In this document: one piece after another, positions 24,480 to 30,148 of the stretch | Position numbering within the stretch: position 1 is the first letter of the stretch | Layout of the letters: each line of letters begins with the position of its first letter | Source: Spirogloea muscicola | Taxonomy: Eukaryota | Assembly (NCBI GenBank): GCA_009602725.1 | Contig: WELB01000004.1 | Coordinates: 62,001-92,148 of the forward strand | DNA: 30,148 bases | Reading direction: 5' to 3' | Position numbers and translations under genes: made by a program | Notes under the pieces: generated by a model | Told to the model about the DNA's origin: nothing | Databases searched by the model: none | Seen by the model: only the letters and a program-made list of their open reading frames with translations

Positions 24480-24480
24480 N

Positions 24481-24530
<50 letters not shown>
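24480..24530. other. N plus poly-A run, probable assembly artefact in DUS1 exon 1
   Basis: Single N followed by 50 A next to a (GGC)n tract, interrupting a coding 5' end. Confidence 0.8.
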
Positions 24531-24531
<1 letters not shown>

Positions 24532-26520
24532 CCGCGGGCGACGGCGGGGCCGCGCGGGAGCGCCGCGCGGCGGCGGCGTGGGAGCACTTCCGGCGGCTGG
24601 GGTCGCCGGCGTGGCACGTGGCGCCCATGGTGGACCAGTCGGAGCTGCCGTTCCGGGTGCTGTGCCGCCGCCACGGCGCGCACGCCGCCTACACGCCCAT
24701 GCTCCACTCCCGCCTCTTCGCCAACGACGCCAAGTACCGCCGCGTCGAGTTCTCCACCTGCCCCGTGAGCCCCTAGCCCCATGGCTCGTCTTTCCCAGCT
24801 GCCGGCTTCGCTTATAGAGGCCTCCAGACGGGCTCCTGAGTCGTGCTTTGACTTCGCTACCAGCGGCCAGCGGCCACAGAGCGGTCTCTGTCTCAGAGTA
24901 CCTTGTTCGTTTGCCAGGCTGCCCATTCAAGCCTTGGTCGATGGTACATGACACCGTCATGGCTGCTCTCTCCGGCAACCGCCTCGTTTGGTCACTGCGG
25001 CCAGAGTGACCAAGTCTGACTCTCCACGCGGTGCTGGTCCTTGTGCAGGAGGATCGGCCGCTGTTTGTGCAGTTCTGCGCCAACGATCCGCAGACGCTGC
25101 TGGCTGCAGCCAAGCACGTCGAGAACGACTGCGACTACATTGACATCAATCTTGGGTATGTTGATATTCTATGGCCTTTCCCTGAGGGACGTGTATTTTG
25201 TGCCAGCAAAGGCTACTATAGCAGCAGAAATAGTACAAGGTGATCAGACCAGAAGCAAGGGAGAGCCTAAGCAATGGGCAGGGTGAGGCTCGTCACGTGT
25301 GACAGACACCTACTCGTAGCGGCCATCCAGGCATGCAGCTGAAGATCTTCTGTCCTGCATGTCACTCTGAAATCTCCACGCTTGACAAGGGTTCTTGCAC
25401 CTTCTGCCGCAGGTGCCCACAAAGGATTGCCAAGCGGGGCTACTACGGCGCGTTCCTGATGGACAACATGCCCCTCGTCAGGTCGCTGGTGGAAACCTTG
25501 GCAGCGGGCGTGAGCACGCCCGTCTCCTGCAAGATCCGCCTCTTCCCCCAGCTCGAGGACACAATCGCCTACGCCAAGATGCTGGAGGACGCGGGGTGCT
25601 CACTGCTGGCTGTGCATGGCCGGACGCGGGACCAGAAGTGCGGGCGAGCCGTGAGGGCCGACTGGCCGGCAATCCGCGCTGTGCGGCAGGCCGTGTCCAT
25701 CCCCGTGCTCGCCAACGGCAATGTGCGGTGGCTGGAGGATGCAGTCGAGTGCATGCGCTTCACAGGCGCGCAGGGCGTGATGTCTGCGGAGTCGCTCCTA
25801 AGCAATCCAGCACTCTTCGCAGGACAACGCATGCCTGCCGAGAGCGGCAGCAGCATCGAGAGCGTGCTTCTGCAGGAAGGCCGGGATACACGGCCAGGGA
25901 CCCCTTGTGAGGCCTCTGCAGCCTCGGCGGCTGCAGCTGAGACGCGGGTGCTCGACGGTGAGCCCTGCAAAGACCAGAAGGCTGATGTCTCAGCAGCGGT
26001 CGAGGTGGTCGCAAGTCAAGTTGAAGGAGGTGAGCACGAGCTGGATGGCAGTGAAAGGAACGGCAGCGGAGCTGGCGAGGCTGCTCCTGACCAGCTGTCG
26101 CTGATGGCGGAGTACCTGGACCTGTGCGACGCCTATCCCGTGCCTATGCGCATGATTCGCGCGCATGTCCACAAGCTCCTAGGTTCGTGGTTCCGTGTGC
26201 ACACGGATCTGCGTGAGCGGCTGAACCGGGAGCATAAGCCGTTGCTGCCCTGGCTGCACTCGATCGTGGTGGAGATTCGCGAGAGAAACTCCAGAGATCC
26301 ATCGTTGAGGCCCTTAAGCGAGAAAATGCCGGGCAGCAGTGCCGCGCTGGGGACTTTGGGCACCGTCGAGCACCCTGCAGCAACTCCCTGCCCCAAGGGG
26401 ACCCAGACGGACGCCAGACCGCAACAGTCATTGGAGTTTCCTTCAAAGGAAGGGCTCATCTGTGGGGACGTGCTTGGCAGCAGCAGTGCGTCAGCTGCAG
26501 CAATCACAACAGTTTCTTAG
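24531..26520 (+). CDS. DUS1: tRNA-dihydrouridine synthase DUS1-like. Exons <24531-24764, 25049-25155, 25413-26520; start hidden in the N/poly-A gap
   Basis: [103 protein letters not shown]. Confidence 0.95.
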
Positions 26521-26879: not shown

Positions 26880-29800
26880 TCAAGAAGTTGCAGCCAAGAG
26901 GATCCCAGAAACAAGGAGGCCAGTGAGAGAGGCTACTGCCGCGCTTGGTAGGCGACCTCCAGTGGATGGAGGGGGAGGCGCAGTTGGTGCTGAGGCCGGA
27001 GGTGAACCAGCACTAGGAGGGCTTGAGGGTGCTGCAGCAGGCCCTGCAGCAGGCCCCGCAACTGGCACTGGTGCGGCAATGGGGACTGGAGCTGGTGGCG
27101 GCGGCCCCCCTGGGGAGGTGAATGGCGCGCCTGCCGGCGCATTCGAGGGCCCATTTGATGGTGCTGCAGCAGGGCTGGCTGGCAGCGGAGTGCCTCTGAT
27201 GACCACTTTCTGGCCTGCGTTCAGCACCGCGGCAGGAGGACTTGCACTGATGAACAGGCTCGATAGGAAAGACCGCTTTGCAGCATTGAAATAGCCGACA
27301 GTTACATAGCAGTTTCATGGGGTCGTGAGGGGAATGCTACAAGTTCCTTGAAGTGAGTATCAGATAAGGTCATGAGCGACTGGTTGATACCTTCTATGCA
27401 ATGGATGGGAAGTCCAGGAGGACCTTCACTGCAGGCAATGTACTGAGCTTCCAGTGTAACATTGATGATGGTGCCCGACATGAGCCCATTGGTCTCCACT
27501 GCCAGCTTGGTGGCGCCCGTGAAGTTGCATGTCTGGTATGCTACGACGTTTGGCAGCCTCCATACGTTGTGGCAGCAGGAATACTGCAGGCCTGTGCGCA
27601 CATTATGATTAGAGACATGGTTATCAGCGTGATGTTGCCTGATGGCAAGCAGACTCATGCTGGAGGCACTGCTTTCTGAAGGCCCTAGGCTACGGCTCCT
27701 GTCTAACCGTCCTAGGACAGGCTTCCTTCTCCTGACTAGGGACAGAAAAGCAGCAGTCTCACCAACTTGGTCGCCATCGTAGAGCGTTGTAACTTCACTC
27801 CAGCGCGTGTAATTAAGGCTGCCGTCATTCCACCAGAGCGGCCAGTAGCCGCTGGCGATGTAAGGGGGTGGCGGCACAGCCAGGCTGGCTTGCCCCAGCC
27901 CTGCTTGAATGACAACCTTCATCCCTGCAGCAACAAGAAGGTGTCACTATGAGGTTGTTAAGGTCCATTGACAGCAGTAGTACCTCTGAAGCATGTCAAG
28001 CTGCAGGGGGAGCGTACATGGCTTTTGAAGCCAGTGGCCAAGTCACATACCCTGCATGCAGTGTGGCCCAACTGGGCACCCGTAGTACTTGGGCGAACTT
28101 GTGACGGGCACCAGGAAGCCGTGGCCCCTGCCATGAGTCTCATTGGCCAGGCTGACAGAGTGGTTGAAGTTGCATATATCATATGCTTTTCGATCGGGAA
28201 ACTGCATCACTTCATGAAAGGCCAGATATTTGAAGGCTGCACACAGAACGCAGGCCGACCGTCAAATCAACAAGTTACGGAGAGCTCAGACTATCCCATA
28301 GGGCTGGGCTGCTAGTATTCAAGCTTGGGGCTTCAGTGAAAGACAAGGCTCTGCCCTGGCTCCTACAGGGTGTGCCACCTGCACATTGTGGAGCATCACG
28401 TGCAAGTGCAGAAGAAGCTGGACTATGATGAGGCAGCGCAAAGAGACAGGAGCTCCAACGTGAATGAGCAAGGCTCCTCACCAACAATGTCGGTGGTTGT
28501 GAGGGGCGTACTGAGCGCCCACTGCGTGTAATTGGGGCCGCCGGAAACCCACCCTTGCGGTCCTCCGATAGTGAGGATCGAACCCTTGTTTCCCGGTGCC
28601 ACTGTGGACGGTGCACTCAGCGTGATTGTGTCGGTGGCCGCGACCACCAACTTCTGGCCTGTTTGTGCCAAAAAAGCGAGGTATGTTTAGCTTTTCGTGA
28701 CTTACTTCATGTGTCCCCAGTAACAATATCACTTACTTTGCTGGCAGAACGCGCAATTAGAGACTTTCACTTGATACTGTCGCAAGTCGAGCAAGGTGGC
28801 CCATGGGACTTGGCAGAGGTGCAGCCTCACCCTCGATACAGTGGATGGGTATGCCCGGGGGGCCCTCGATGCAGGCAATGTACTGTGGCGCAGCAGTGAC
28901 CTTGATGGTGACGCCTGATCGCGTCCCATTGGGCTCGCCGGCGAGCTTCGCAGCGCCCGTGAAGTTGCACGTCTGGAAGGCCTGCTCGCTGACCAGCCTG
29001 TACACAGTGTGGCAGCACGAGTACTGCAGGCCTGCACAACAAGTACGCAGAGCAGGTGGCGGGAAATGCGTGAGCAAAAGCACTCACACGTGCGCCCTGC
29101 CTGCCATACTGTCGGCGGCTTGCATCAGAGCAGGCCGTATGGGTTGCAGCTCGCGTGCTCACCAACACTGTCGCCAACGCGGAGGTCGTGCTCGGCGGCC
29201 CACTGGCTGTAGTCGAGGGCGCCGTCGGCCCACTCCAGCGGGTAGTAGCCCTGAGCTTCGGCGGGCGGCGGGGGCGACTCCGGAGTCGCTGCGTTGCCCA
29301 GCCCGGCCTGGATGATGACCTTCATGCCTGCAAGAGGCGGGCCCACGCTGCATATCTGACTGGAGGCAGTCTGCGCCCTCGATGCGAGCTGCGCTTTGAG
29401 CTGCTGAGCTGCAGAGTGGGCCGCGGCGATGCGGACGCAGAGACGTGCATGTCGTGGCGCTCACCCAAGATGCAGTGGGGCCTGACGGGGCAGGCATAGT
29501 ACGCGGGCTTCCTCGTGACGCGCACGACGAAGCCCTCGCTGCCGCCGTCCTCCACGCCGGCCAGCAGCTCGGAGCCGTTGAAGTTGCAAGCCTCCCAGTA
29601 GCTGCGGTTGGCCATGCGCGACACCTGGTGGCTGCCGATGTACCGGAAGGCTGCGCACGGCAGGAGAGTGAAGGCGCGTTGTGGGCGTAAGGAGATTGGA
29701 GCTCCGAGCTCGAGCGCTCGAGCCAGGACGTGTGGAGTGTGTATCGAGTGATGGAGGGCCTGAGTGGCCAAGTACGAAGGCAAGCACATTGACAGCTGTA

Positions 29801-30054
29801 CACCGCCTGCTGCTAAGCCGACCCGCTCAGTAACCACGAGAGTCAGCACGTAGAGGTCGTTAAGTCACATTGGAGATTGTCTTAAGGGGGACCAGCAGCG
29901 AGGCCGGCGACGGGCCGACGAGGCGCGCACCGACGGAGTCGCGCGTGGTGAGCGGCGTGGCGGCCGCCCAGGCGGTGTAGTTGGCGGCGCCCTCGGCCCA
30001 GCCGCCGGGGCCGCCGACCTGGACCACGGCGGCGCGCGCGGCGGCAGCTGCGGC

Positions 30055-30058
<4 letters not shown>
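26880..30058 (-). CDS. Four-domain phytocyanin (blue copper) with AGP-like stalk and GPI-signal-like C-terminus; start lost in poly-A. Exons >30058-29931, 29650-29465, 29327-29163, 29031-28831, 28658-28482, 28236-28051, 27924-27763, 27591-27391, 27214-26880
   Basis: Four copies of the plastocyanin-like pattern W..(N/D)Y..W....D.V.(F/L).Y...H.V...C...C-xn-HC..G(M/Q)K, followed by AP/SP/PA-rich AGP motifs and a hydrophobic tail (SAAVASLTGLLVSGILLAATS*). All 8 introns are phase-1 GT-AG. Confidence 0.93.

Positions 30059-30148
<90 letters not shown>
30059..30148. other. Terminal poly-A run, probable assembly artefact masking the phytocyanin start
   Basis: About 90 A replacing the expected signal-peptide coding sequence, adjacent to a GC-rich exon. 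Confidence 0.75.

What the first reader, a model, noticed from the sequence alone, without database searches (positions are those of the whole stretch)
26880..30058. GPI-anchored four-domain phytocyanin with alternating Met/Gln copper sites: a candidate cell-surface electron-transfer chain
Seen: four tandem plastocyanin-like domains, each with a full type-1 Cu ligand set. D1 is H...C-PVRP-H-CILG-M, D2 is H...C-IEGPPGIPI-H-CIEG-Q, D3 is H...C-PVGP-H-CMQG-M and D4 is H...C-SEGPPGLPI-H-CIEG-Q. These are followed by an AP/SP-rich stalk and a GPI-like tail. Known: Met axial ligands define uclacyanin/plantacyanin types, Gln defines lower-potential stellacyanins, and land-plant phytocyanins usually have one domain, occasionally two. 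Inference: one chain alternating higher- and lower-potential Cu centres could relay electrons along an extended protein in the wall, which I do not recognise as a described architecture.
Basis: partly seen in the sequence, partly recalled or inferred. Interest (0 to 1): 0.85.

Follow-up and report, generated by a model that had tools for sequence, protein, structure and literature searches.

The report
Four-domain blue-copper cell-surface protein
This gene of the streptophyte alga Spirogloea muscicola encodes one protein with four phytocyanin (blue-copper) domains whose axial copper-ligand positions alternate Met and Gln; it is likely a flexible, multi-site redox protein tethered to the cell surface and not a rigid electron wire, and four-domain relatives already sit unremarked in cotton and other plant databases.

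Summary
On the minus strand, 26880-30058, nine exons (eight GT..AG introns, all phase 1) join into one frame. The frame equals the public Spirogloea muscicola model SM000004S14907 from its start onward. It has four PF02298 phytocyanin domains. Each has His, Cys, His, the family's disulfide pair, and axial Met, Gln, Met, Gln. A Pro/Ala/Ser stalk and a hydrophobic C-terminal tail follow. Every domain boundary lies inside an exon. Transcript-like contigs bridge introns 2-8, so this is one gene. The start codon is hidden by a 90-nt A-run that is probably an assembly artefact. The homeolog (601 aa) supplies a signal peptide.

D1/D3 and D2/D4 are sister pairs, so a two-domain unit was duplicated. 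That unit, marked by a Cys-Cys-His motif, also occurs in Coleochaete and two unnamed relatives, but there as Q|Q or M|M.

The electron-wire reading has no support. Linkers model as disordered and inter-domain confidence is low (pTM 0.36 for the whole protein, 0.58 for D1-D2). Four- to six-domain phytocyanins exist elsewhere (for example Gossypium, 4xGln, GPI-like tail), although the papers I found describe at most three domains. M-Q-M-Q and the Cys-x9-His Gln sites are specific to this protein and its homeolog among the 151 proteins parsed.

Verdict: a new variant of a known kind, of moderate interest.

The parts
30059..30148 (.). 90-nt A-run at the window's end. It replaces the 5' part of exon 1 (start codon and most of the signal peptide) and is likely an assembly artefact.
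   Evidence: Other homopolymer runs in the window abut N gaps (24480 N followed by A50; a T-run before the N at 2180). The public model starts at an internal Met in exon 2.
29931..30058 (-). Exon 1 (5'-incomplete): end of the signal peptide (..LAAAAAARA) and the N-terminal half of domain 1.
   Evidence: It aligns to residues 24-64 of homeolog P0002, whose annotated model has the same exon1-exon2 join. It is not covered by run X1.
29465..29650 (-). Exon 2: C-terminal half of domain 1 with His (SHQV), the disulfide Cys, and Cys-PVRP-His-Cys.
   Evidence: (aligned to mavicyanin 1WS7).
29163..29327 (-). Exon 3: axial Met and last strand of domain 1, Pro-rich linker 1, and the N-terminal half of domain 2. 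The domain boundary lies inside this exon.
   Evidence: A contig join across intron 2 lies near the predicted border.
28831..29031 (-). Exon 4: C-terminal half of domain 2 with Cys-Cys-His and Cys-IEGPPGIPI-His-Cys (Cys-x9-His).
   Evidence: (the His region aligns to stellacyanin 1JER).
28482..28658 (-). Exon 5: axial Gln and last strand of domain 2, linker 2, and the N-terminal half of domain 3.
   Evidence: Contig joins sit exactly at introns 4 (172 nt) and 5 (245 nt).
28051..28236 (-). Exon 6: C-terminal half of domain 3 with His, the disulfide Cys, and Cys-PVGP-His-Cys. At 186 nt it has the same length as exon 2.
   Evidence: (aligned to umecyanin 1X9R).
27763..27924 (-). Exon 7: axial Met and last strand of domain 3, linker 3, and the N-terminal half of domain 4.
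   Evidence: A contig join sits at intron 6 (126 nt), and a loose end matches the intron 7 join.
27391..27591 (-). Exon 8: C-terminal half of domain 4 with Cys-Cys-His and Cys-SEGPPGLPI-His-Cys. At 201 nt it has the same length as exon 4.
   Evidence: (100% identical to P0001).
26880..27214 (-). Exon 9: axial Gln and last strand of domain 4, an about 84-residue Pro/Ala/Ser/Gly stalk, a 20-residue hydrophobic C-terminal tail (predicted GPI signal), and the stop codon at 26880-26882.
   Evidence: Loose ends match the intron 8 join. The AF2 model gives the stalk pLDDT <50 and a terminal helix.

Best explanation
This is a real nine-exon gene of Spirogloea muscicola for a four-domain phytocyanin, and its domains likely act as four independent type-1 copper redox sites strung on flexible Pro-rich linkers at the cell surface, not as a fixed wire.

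Shown:
- One reading frame carries four PF02298 domains.
- Each domain has His/Cys/His, an axial Met or Gln, and the phytocyanin disulfide pair.
- Every domain boundary lies inside an exon.
- Intron-skipping contigs bridge introns 2-8.
- D1/D3 and D2/D4 are sister pairs, so a four-exon block encoding a two-domain unit was duplicated. The exon lengths and intron phase are preserved.

Inferred:
- The protein is secreted. The signal peptide is seen only in the homeolog.
- The stalk is O-glycosylated like an arabinogalactan protein.
- The C-terminal hydrophobic tail is exchanged for a GPI anchor.
- Each domain binds one Cu.
- Each site exchanges single electrons with small apoplastic reductants or oxidants, or with wall enzymes, as proposed for single-domain phytocyanins.

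On this reading four sites per anchor raise the local site density. Two site chemistries (Met with a short loop, Gln with a long loop) would broaden the range of potentials by about 40-100 mV. Electron hopping between domains would occur only through transient collisions of tethered domains.
For: Gene model:
- 8 of 8 introns are GT..AG and in the same phase.
- the spliced frame equals P0001.
- contigs of run X1 show no cover in the bins that fall wholly inside introns 3-8. They join at introns 4, 5 and 6 exactly and at introns 2 and 3 within a few nt. Loose ends match the joins of introns 7 and 8.

Family:
- PF02298 at E 1e-19 to 3e-24.
- all 4 PDB sequence hits are phytocyanins (1JER, 1WS7, 1X9R, 2CBP).
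- Foldseek ranks 1-9 are all phytocyanins, target TM 0.70-0.84.
- the ligand and disulfide columns are filled in 4 of 4 domains of P0002.

Duplication:
- D1-D3 54.8% and D2-D4 58.5% identical; cross pairs 32-39%.
- sister pairs with SH-aLRT 94 and 99.
- exons 2 and 6 are both 186 nt, exons 4 and 8 both 201 nt.

Flexibility:
- linkers 139-155, 258-271 and 383-389 have pLDDT <50; pTM 0.36.
- the D1-D2 construct has mean pLDDT 88.9 but pTM 0.58, with the linker block at about 52.

Surface tethering:
- the homeolog has a hydrophobic N-terminal core followed by ASAASA before the first domain. The stalk is 30% P, 23% A and 15% S, with 17 [ASTG]-P dipeptides in 84 residues. The tail is hydrophobic (hydropathy 1.81) and nothing follows it.
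- Phytocyanins are reported as GPI-anchored cell-surface proteins thought to do redox chemistry with small molecules (PMC7575197, passages).

Potentials: stellacyanin (Gln) 265 mV against cucumber basic protein (Met) 306 mV; rusticyanin M148Q 563 mV against wild type 667 mV (PMC11881046, Table 1).
Against: - Copper binding, secretion, glycosylation and GPI anchoring are all untested.
- The window itself lacks the start codon. Exon 1 and intron 1 have no transcript cover in the one run available.
- The run is only guessed to be RNA.
- Low pTM is weak evidence of flexibility. The alignments were shallow (53 and 25 rows), no inter-domain error map or coordinates were available, and the complex predictor never ran.
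- The D2/D4 sites depart from all solved phytocyanins: Cys-x9-His instead of Cys-x4-His, and a Cys-Cys pair before the first His. They may not be ordinary type-1 sites. In the full-length model the D2 loop (244-250) had pLDDT <50, but it was confident in the two-domain model.
- D2 and both flanking linkers are identical between the two homeologs (0 changes in 138 residues, against 9 in 104 for D3). This could mean stronger constraint on the linkers than 'flexible spacer' implies.
Confidence: 0.6

Rival explanations
1. One reading: the four copper centres form an intramolecular relay. Electrons would step along the chain through alternating higher-potential (Met) and lower-potential (Gln) sites across the wall space.
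For: All four sites are complete and alternate M-Q-M-Q. The pattern is kept in both homeologs with none of the 15 ligand positions present in both proteins changed. Linker lengths are nearly equal at 16-17 residues. Linker sequences are identical between homeologs. Axial Gln lowers potential by roughly 40-100 mV relative to Met (PMC11881046).
Against: - No confident inter-domain packing: pTM 0.36 and 0.58, linkers at pLDDT about 50 or below.
- No match to the domain arrangement of enzymes that do pass electrons between copper sites; those hits have rmsd of 12 A or more.
- The shared two-domain module is Q|Q in Coleochaete and M|M in two unnamed relatives. Other 3-6-domain phytocyanins are mostly all-Gln. 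The potential step is therefore not what multi-domain forms have in common.
- An up-down-up-down potential ladder gives no net driving force along the chain (inference).
- From the cupredoxin topology as I recall it, both chain termini lie at the end opposite the copper. Neighbouring sites joined by a 16-residue linker would then be hard to bring face to face (recalled, not computed).
Confidence: 0.12
2. The protein's main role is not redox. It would be a multivalent arabinogalactan-type surface protein used for adhesion, wall organisation or signalling, as proposed for early-nodulin-like phytocyanins. The copper sites would serve copper buffering or be incidental.
For: The stalk and tail are of the chimeric-AGP type. 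Close zygnematophyte relatives (Closterium P0009 and P0011; unnamed P0012) are three-domain proteins that have lost all copper ligands. Netrium P0005 keeps a site in only 1 of 2 domains. So multi-domain forms persist without copper. An NCBI label for the cotton four-domain protein is 'GPI-anchored adhesin-like'; that label is automatic.
Against: All 16 ligand positions and all 8 disulfide cysteines are intact in P0002. All those present in P0001 are unchanged, across two homeologs and an old internal duplication (domains only 55-58% identical). This argues for selection on the copper sites.
Confidence: 0.22
3. The four-domain protein is an annotation or assembly artefact: tandem phytocyanin genes wrongly fused, or a collapsed repeat.
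For: The assembly is a draft with N gaps and homopolymer fillers. The public model is N-truncated. Some land-plant 'four-domain' entries with about 100-residue spacers (Protea, Turnera) could themselves be fused tandem genes.
Against: Each domain boundary lies inside a single exon (exons 3, 5, 7, 9), with no stop codon and no signal peptide between domains. Contigs join every intron from 2 to 8. A second locus on another scaffold (s7) encodes the same four-domain protein at about 95% identity.
Confidence: 0.02

Closest known systems
Single-domain land-plant phytocyanins: stellacyanin (1JER), mavicyanin (1WS7), umecyanin (1X9R), cucumber basic protein/plantacyanin (2CBP, 1F56), uclacyanins
   Same: Same Pfam family (PF02298), fold (target TM 0.70-0.84) and ligand order His...Cys...His...Met/Gln. 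Same disulfide next to the second His, secretory design, AGP-like stalk and hydrophobic C-terminus. The phase-1 intron inside the domain matches the conserved one noted in PMC4499708.
   Different: Four domains instead of one. Both axial types occur in one chain. The Gln domains have Cys-x9-His instead of Cys-x4-His and a Cys-Cys pair before the first His. A second phase-1 intron sits just before each axial ligand.
Multi-PCLD phytocyanins described in land plants (types III, IV, V, VIII, X of Cao et al. 2015, PMC4499708; rice type VI, PMC3184959)
   Same: Tandem plastocyanin-like domains in one secreted protein, attributed to intragenic duplication (passages read).
   Different: Those papers report two or three domains. 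I found no paper reporting four. I did not see their axial-ligand patterns per domain, because I did not open their supplements.
Gossypium four-domain phytocyanin (P0013, 541 aa; for example XP_012462113.1; 541-aa forms in 6 cotton species in its cluster)
   Same: Signal-peptide-like N-terminus, four contiguous PF02298 domains each with His/Cys/His and the disulfide, a short Ser/Pro/Thr stalk and a hydrophobic C-terminal tail.
   Different: All four sites are Gln with Cys-x4-His. The four domains are near-identical recent repeats forming their own clade, so the architecture arose independently. There is no Cys-Cys-His motif.
Two-domain phytocyanins of other streptophyte algae: Coleochaete scutata P0006 (best relative, 43% identity over D1+D2), unnamed P0008 and P0010, Netrium digitus P0005
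   Same: The D1-like first domain and the Cys-Cys-His second domain are the same module as D1-D2 and D3-D4. The motif occurs in 8 of 231 domains, all in these 6 proteins.
   Different: They have one module, not two. Axial pairs are Q|Q, M|M, M|M and Q|none. The Cys-Cys-His domains have Cys-x4-His or Cys-x2-His, so the five-residue loop insertion is specific to Spirogloea.
Multi-cupredoxin enzymes that pass electrons between copper sites (copper nitrite reductase, laccases and other multicopper oxidases, ceruloplasmin)
   Same: Several cupredoxin domains in one chain. Nitrite reductase shows that a long Cys-x8-His loop can hold a type-1 site (H95, C136, H145, M150; table in PMC517927).
   Different: These enzymes have rigid domain interfaces and type-2/3 sites fed through a His-Cys-His motif. 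Here the ligand Cys is flanked by Ala/Gly and Pro/Ile/Ser, not His. There are no extra His clusters. Structural matches are only at rmsd 12-23 A.

Membership tests
Phytocyanin (Pfam PF02298 Cu_bind_like, cupredoxin fold) | Significant match to the family profile | tested here: met
   P0001 70.3 bits and P0002 85.3 bits against a cut-off of 20.8, with 3 and 4 stretches. Single exons alone fall below the cut-off: 2 of 9 pieces gave weak hits.
Phytocyanin (Pfam PF02298 Cu_bind_like, cupredoxin fold) | Four type-1 copper ligands (His, Cys, His, Met/Gln) at the family's positions | tested here: met
   HCHM, HCHQ, HCHM, HCHQ in P0002. D1 aligns to mavicyanin and D3 to umecyanin through all ligand positions. 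For D2 only the first His region aligns to stellacyanin by sequence; the rest rests on my HMM alignment.
Phytocyanin (Pfam PF02298 Cu_bind_like, cupredoxin fold) | Conserved disulfide pair (the Cys after the first His region, and the Cys following the second His) | tested here: met
   both columns are Cys in 4 of 4 domains. PMC3184959 (passage) states that the pair is highly conserved in rice and Arabidopsis.
Phytocyanin (Pfam PF02298 Cu_bind_like, cupredoxin fold) | Phytocyanin-type beta-sandwich fold | tested here: met
   Foldseek ranks 1-9 are 2CBP, 1WS7/8, 1JER, 1X9R and 1F56, target TM 0.70-0.84, probability 1.00. These are predicted models, not solved structures.
Phytocyanin (Pfam PF02298 Cu_bind_like, cupredoxin fold) | Actually binds one Cu per domain with blue (about 600 nm) absorbance | not testable with these tools
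   Needs expressed protein.
Stellacyanin subfamily (domains 2 and 4) | Axial Gln with the usual Cys-x4-His-x4-Gln loop | tested here: inconclusive
   Gln is present with His-x4-Gln spacing, but the Cys-His spacing is 9. Spacing is 4 in 159 of 191 His/Cys/His domains parsed and 9 in 9 of them, 4 being Spirogloea's. Subfamily definitions as given in PMC13032376 and PMC7575197 (passages) rest on the ligands only.
Uclacyanin/plantacyanin type (domains 1 and 3) | Axial Met with Cys-x4-His-x4-Met | tested here: met
   Which of the two Met subfamilies applies was not resolved; the domain tree places D1/D3 in an unresolved polytomy.
Chimeric arabinogalactan protein (phytocyanin-like AGP) | Signal peptide plus a Pro/Ala/Ser/Thr-rich region with Ala-Pro, Ser-Pro and Thr-Pro glycomodules | tested here: inconclusive
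   Stalk: P+A+S+T is 75% of 84 residues, with 17 [ASTG]-Pro dipeptides. The signal peptide is seen only in homeolog P0002 because the window is cut. No signal-peptide or glycosylation predictor was run.
GPI-anchored protein | C-terminal signal: small omega-site residues, a short spacer, and a hydrophobic tail with nothing after it | tested here: inconclusive
   The sequence ends in a 20-residue hydrophobic stretch (hydropathy 1.81) preceded by Ser/Thr/Gly/Gly and Pro-Ser-Ala-Ala, which AF2 models as a terminal helix. This is a heuristic only; no predictor or experiment.
Multicopper oxidase / nitrite-reductase type multi-cupredoxin enzymes | His-Cys-His motif and extra His clusters for type-2/3 copper; fixed domain interfaces | tested here: not met
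   The ligand Cys neighbours are A-C-P, A-C-I, G-C-P and A-C-S. Structural matches are only at rmsd 12-23 A. pTM is 0.36 and 0.58.

The most novel reading that the evidence does not exclude
The Met/short-loop domain and the Cys-Cys-His/long-loop Gln domain are a purpose-built hetero-pair: a tethered donor-acceptor couple with a 40-100 mV step. One site is tuned to take electrons from a wall or plasma-membrane donor, and the other passes them to an acceptor. The pair is duplicated to give two relay units per anchor. The Cys-Cys pair beside the copper and the nine-residue loop would make D2/D4 a copper site of a kind not yet characterised in any cupredoxin.
Probability: 0.1. Interest if true: 0.7.

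Novelty: new variant of a known kind. Interest (0 to 1): 0.35.

Why it matters
Phytocyanins are abundant plant cell-surface copper proteins whose function is still largely unknown. [quoted passage not shown] It carries it in an elaborated form, with four intact sites of two chemistries in one chain.

It offers a natural construct for asking whether tethered blue-copper domains exchange electrons with each other. It also points to a small algal clade with an unexplained Cys-Cys pair next to the copper ligand.

The survey also shows that multi-domain phytocyanins arose repeatedly, in cotton, Proteaceae, uncultured eukaryotes and streptophyte algae. Family surveys that count genes rather than domains have not brought this out.

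Tried and rejected
- **Complex prediction of D1 against D2.** It never ran. The queue was full or closed, so domain docking remains untested.
- **Whole-genome search.** No genome is held for this window.
- **Exon-by-exon Pfam.** Only 2 of 9 pieces gave sub-threshold PF02298 hits, because every domain is split by an intron. I solved this by finding the annotated protein.
- **Word-indexed protein searches with P0002.** Near lengths returned only P0001 and shorter lengths only P0006. The Pro-rich words probably crowd out relatives, so these blanks say little. The exhaustive search found 512 relatives.
- **RNA evidence.** No RNA holder is listed on record. The single run X1 is 'RNA?' by guess. Exon 1 and intron 1 have no cover in it, and I do not count that as evidence either way.
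- **ESM Atlas.** It returned only generic phytocyanin clusters: 0.91-0.92 for the whole protein and 0.86-0.87 for D2.
- **Earlier findings of this scan.** Nothing on this genome and nothing relevant by words.
- **Nersissian et al. 1998 (PMC2144163).** The paper is not held. Subfamily definitions are taken from later papers' passages.
- **Intron homology between the two duplicated blocks.** Not above control pairs: 50-52% against 33-53%. The duplication is old, and introns give no date.
- **Fused-gene artefact.** Considered and rejected (see rivals).
Full report
**What is in the sequence**

The feature lies on the minus strand. Reading the reverse complement of 26880-30058, I set nine exons by their GT..AG borders:
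- 30058-29931
- 29650-29465
- 29327-29163
- 29031-28831
- 28658-28482
- 28236-28051
- 27924-27763
- 27591-27391
- 27214-26880

All 8 introns are GT..AG, 126-280 nt long and in the same phase (one base of the split codon before the intron, two after). The joined frame is open for 579 codons up to a TGA at 26880-26882. Upstream, exon 1 runs into a 90-nt A-run that ends the window (30059-30148), so the start codon is not visible.

**Identity and gene model**

A search with the translation of exon 8 found one longer protein, 100% identical. It is P0001, 525 aa, from the EukProt set of Spirogloea muscicola, model SM000004S14907, scaffold s4.

My spliced translation ends with exactly those 525 residues, so the public model uses the same exons 2-9. 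It starts at an internal Met in exon 2, presumably because the 5' end is hidden.

The same 90%-identity cluster holds a second locus on scaffold s7, P0002, 601 aa and about 95% identical. It has a full N-terminus: a basic start, a Leu-rich core, then Ala-Ser-Ala-Ala-Ser-Ala before the first domain.

The window contains N gaps (10071-10257; single N at 2180, 12818 and 24480). Homopolymer runs sit directly beside some of them, for example N followed by A50 at 24480-24530. The A-run inside an exon of 83% G+C is therefore most likely an assembly artefact.

**One gene, not several**

Each domain boundary lies inside an exon.
- Exon 3 carries the last strand of D1, linker 1 and the first half of D2.
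- Exons 5 and 7 do the same for D2/D3 and D3/D4.
- Exon 9 carries the end of D4, the stalk and the tail.

The only public run that holds the stretch (coded X1, kind guessed as RNA, kept as contigs) gives the following:
- It covers exons and leaves every depth bin that falls wholly inside an intron (introns 3-8) empty.
- Its contigs join exactly across introns 4, 5 and 6 (172, 245 and 126 nt).
- They join within a few bases across introns 2 and 3. These joins come from contigs 90-95% identical, probably the homeolog.
- Loose ends at 27216, 27390 and 27762 continue with the sequence of the next exon, as predicted for introns 8 and 7.
- Of the 84 contigs laid, 17 are at least 99% identical.

Exon 1 and intron 1 have no cover. 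Their join rests on the homeolog's annotated model only.

**Family**

Single exons barely touch Pfam: 2 of 9 pieces, both below the cut-off. The whole proteins match PF02298 at E=1.4e-19 (P0001, 3 stretches) and 3e-24 (P0002, 4 stretches).

All 4 sequence hits in the PDB are phytocyanins: cucumber stellacyanin 1JER, mavicyanin 1WS7, umecyanin 1X9R and cucumber basic protein 2CBP. D1 and D3 align through all ligand positions.

Two AlphaFold models were searched with Foldseek. One is full-length P0002 with a 53-row alignment. The other is a D1-linker-D2 part with 25 rows. Ranks 1-9 are phytocyanins in both searches, target TM 0.70-0.84.

An HMM built from the four domains and iterated on the hits places His, Cys, His, the axial residue and both disulfide cysteines in the same columns in all four domains. 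The result is HCHM, HCHQ, HCHM, HCHQ.

D2 and D4 differ from the norm in two ways.
- The Cys-His spacing is 9. It is 4 in 159 of 191 His/Cys/His domains parsed and 9 in 9 of them, 4 being Spirogloea's.
- A Cys-Cys pair precedes the first His.

A long Cys-His loop is not incompatible with a type-1 site. Nitrite reductase has Cys136...His145 (table in PMC517927).

**Stalk and tail** (on P0002)
- The 84 residues after D4 are 30% Pro, 23% Ala, 15% Ser, 13% Gly and 7% Thr, with 17 [ASTG]-Pro dipeptides.
- The last 20 residues are hydrophobic (mean hydropathy 1.81), with nothing after them.
- There are 11 N-x-S/T sequons.

This is the layout that rice and ten-species surveys call a type I phytocyanin: signal peptide, domain, AGP-like region, GPI signal (PMC3184959 and PMC4499708, passages). 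I had no signal-peptide or GPI predictor, so secretion and anchoring are inferences.

**How the four domains arose**

D1-D3 are 54.8% identical and D2-D4 58.5%, while cross pairs are 32-39%.

I built a quick maximum-likelihood tree of 63 domains from 30 of the 151 proteins, dropping domains under 85 residues. D1+D3 (SH-aLRT 94) and D2+D4 (99) are sister pairs.

Exons 2 and 6 are both 186 nt, exons 4 and 8 both 201 nt, and exons 3 and 7 are 165 and 162 nt. Intron sequences are no more alike than control pairs. So a four-exon block encoding a two-domain unit was duplicated long ago, and the uniform intron phase made that possible without a frameshift.

The intron inside each domain matches the conserved phase-1 intron noted for land-plant phytocyanins (PMC4499708).

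**Relatives and rarity of the architecture**

An exhaustive HMMER search of 1.84 billion representatives with P0002 gave 512 hits at E<=1e-3 (36 at <=1e-10, 5 at <=1e-30). The best 150 were stored. A multi-domain query favours multi-domain hits, so this set is enriched for them and is not a census.

I parsed these plus P0002 with my HMM, counting matches that span at least 50 profile positions. That gave 231 domains in 151 proteins:

| Domains per protein | Proteins |
|---|---|
| 1 | 98 |
| 2 | 36 |
| 3 | 9 |
| 4 | 7 |
| 6 | 1 |

The four-domain proteins outside Spirogloea are:
- P0013: Gossypium, 541 aa, 4xHCHQ, contiguous domains, signal-like start and hydrophobic tail. Its cluster holds 541-aa forms from 6 cotton species.
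- P0085: Protea cynaroides, 891 aa, 4xHCHQ, domains about 100 residues apart.
- P0049: Turnera subulata, 874 aa.
- P0004 and P0021: unnamed metagenome proteins.

P0003 (unnamed, 867 aa) has six domains. Pfam confirms 4 stretches for P0013, P0049 and P0085, and fewer than my HMM for P0003, P0004 and P0021.

In the tree the repeats of each of these proteins form their own clades, so domain multiplication happened independently many times.

Axial patterns among the 53 multi-domain proteins:
- 17 are all-Gln.
- 8 are all-Met.
- 24 are incomplete or other.
- 4 mix Met and Gln: P0002 (MQMQ), P0001 (-QMQ, truncated), P0021 (Q-MQ) and P0060 (Liquidambar, QM).

**Literature**

Papers report two and three domains (PMC4499708) and two domains in rice (PMC3184959). 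A full-text search for phytocyanin with 'four PCLDs', 'multiple PCLDs' or 'four plastocyanin-like domains' found nothing beyond PMC4499708. Searches for phytocyanin with Spirogloea or Zygnematophyceae found nothing on this gene.

**The closest relatives change the reading**

The best hits are streptophyte algae:
- Coleochaete scutata P0006: 245 aa, two domains, 43% identity over D1+D2.
- Netrium digitus P0005: two domains.
- Closterium P0009 and P0011: three domains, all copper ligands lost.
- Unnamed P0008 and P0010: two domains.

The Cys-Cys-His motif occurs in 8 of 231 domains. These are D2 and D4 of both Spirogloea proteins, the second domain of P0006, P0008 and P0010, and the first domain of P0005. 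The two-domain module is therefore older than the Spirogloea duplication.

Its axial ligands are Q|Q (Coleochaete), M|M (P0008, P0010) and M|Q only in Spirogloea. The five-residue loop insertion is also specific to Spirogloea. A Met-to-Gln potential step is thus not a conserved property of the module.

**Wire or beads**

*Full-length model*
- Mean pLDDT 72.4 and pTM 0.36.
- By 10-residue blocks, D1 is at 72-94, D3 at 79-96, D4 at 73-96 and D2 at 54-82.
- The three linkers (139-155, 258-271, 383-389) and the stalk are below 50.

*D1-linker-D2 model*
- Mean pLDDT 88.9, and both domains fold well. Blocks are about 86-97, including the long D2 loop. The only low blocks are the linker (about 52), a loop in D2 (63) and the C-terminal residue.
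- pTM is only 0.58. This is roughly what one well-placed domain out of two would give, by my estimate.

No solved multi-cupredoxin protein matches the domain arrangement; those hits have rmsd 12-23 A. The protein lacks the His-Cys-His motif through which multicopper oxidases pass electrons.

Known Met/Gln differences are modest. Stellacyanin is 265 mV against cucumber basic protein at 306 mV. Rusticyanin M148Q is 563 mV against 667 mV for wild type (PMC11881046, Table 1). An alternating ladder gives no net downhill path (inference).

I could not measure Cu-Cu distances because no coordinates are given. The complex predictor never ran. The evidence against a wire is therefore indirect.

One observation cuts the other way. 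D2 and both flanking linkers are identical between the homeologs (0 changes in 138 residues), while D3 has 9 in 104 and the stalk 10 in 81. This could reflect constraint on the linkers or gene conversion.

**Most likely mechanism**

I read this as a secreted, probably GPI-anchored, AGP-type phytocyanin with four independent type-1 copper sites on flexible, likely glycosylated linkers. It would do what single-domain phytocyanins are thought to do: one-electron chemistry with small molecules or wall enzymes at the cell surface (PMC7575197, passages). It would do so with four sites per anchor and two site chemistries.

The intact state of all 16 ligand positions and 8 disulfide cysteines argues that copper binding is under selection. 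They have stayed intact through an old duplication and in both homeologs. This also argues against a purely structural role, although copper-free multi-domain relatives in Closterium show that such roles evolve in this clade.

My probabilities:
- Independent-site redox protein: 0.6.
- Mainly non-redox surface protein: 0.22.
- Intramolecular relay: 0.12.
- Artefact: 0.02.
The remainder is unassigned.

**Novelty and score**

The family, the multi-domain principle, the stalk and the tail are all known. Four-domain members exist in databases. Three things are new:
- The documented combination in a zygnematophyte alga of two old, different domain types alternating M-Q-M-Q.
- The Cys-x9-His Gln sites.
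- The Cys-Cys-His clade marker.

I rate it a new variant of a known kind, interest 0.35. The boldest reading not excluded is a tethered donor-acceptor pair with an uncharacterised copper site, at probability about 0.1.

Noticed in passing
window 10071-10257; 2180; 12818; 24480-24530; 30059-30148: The window is draft assembly. It holds a 187-nt N gap, three single Ns, and homopolymer runs directly beside Ns (an A50 after the N at 24480, a T-run before the N at 2180). The A90 at the window's end looks like the same kind of filler.
   Followed up: partly
window 29732-29850 (intron 1 of the phytocyanin gene) and 23628-23751: A dispersed repeat of about 100-125 nt. The intron-1 copy matches a second copy in the window on the opposite strand (76% over 131 nt, E 3e-17). 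It also matches dozens of unrelated contigs in run X1, with summed depth up to about 4800. It is probably a small transposable element that is transcribed within many genes.
   Followed up: partly
P0001 vs P0002, residues 138-275 of P0002 (window exons 3-5): Domain 2 and both flanking linkers are identical between the two homeologous loci (0 changes in 138 residues). Domain 3 has 9 changes in 104 and the stalk 10 in 81. This points to gene conversion or unusually strong constraint.
   Followed up: no
window exons 4 and 8 (28831-29031, 27391-27591); P0005, P0006, P0008, P0010: A vicinal Cys-Cys sits directly before the first copper-ligand His. It marks a small clade of streptophyte-algal phytocyanin domains (8 of 231 domains, 6 of 151 proteins). 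Its role is unknown.
   Followed up: partly
window 26880-30058, exons 1 to 9: There is a steep 5'-to-3' fall in exon G+C, from 0.83 in exon 1 to 0.53-0.54 in exons 6 and 8. Introns fall from 0.61-0.66 to about 0.50.
   Followed up: no
window 25303-26520 (+): A long exon of a dihydrouridine synthase gene (PF01207, E 2.9e-40), convergent with the phytocyanin gene. About 360 nt separate this open frame's end from the phytocyanin stop codon.
   Followed up: no
window 9634-11025 (+): An open frame with a weak ribosomal protein S11 match (PF00411, E 1.6e-6, 28.9 bits). It is interrupted by the 187-nt N gap.
   Followed up: no
P0009, P0011 (Closterium), P0012 (unnamed): Three-domain phytocyanin-like proteins. 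They keep the disulfide pair in every domain but lack the ligand Cys and at least one more copper ligand in each. They are multi-domain 'early-nodulin-like' forms in zygnematophytes.
   Followed up: no
P0003 (unnamed metagenome protein, 867 aa): Six tandem phytocyanin-like domains (five complete HCHQ sites plus one domain truncated at the N-terminus). They are followed by a Cys-rich C-terminal region with no stalk or hydrophobic tail. This is the largest repeat number seen.
   Followed up: no
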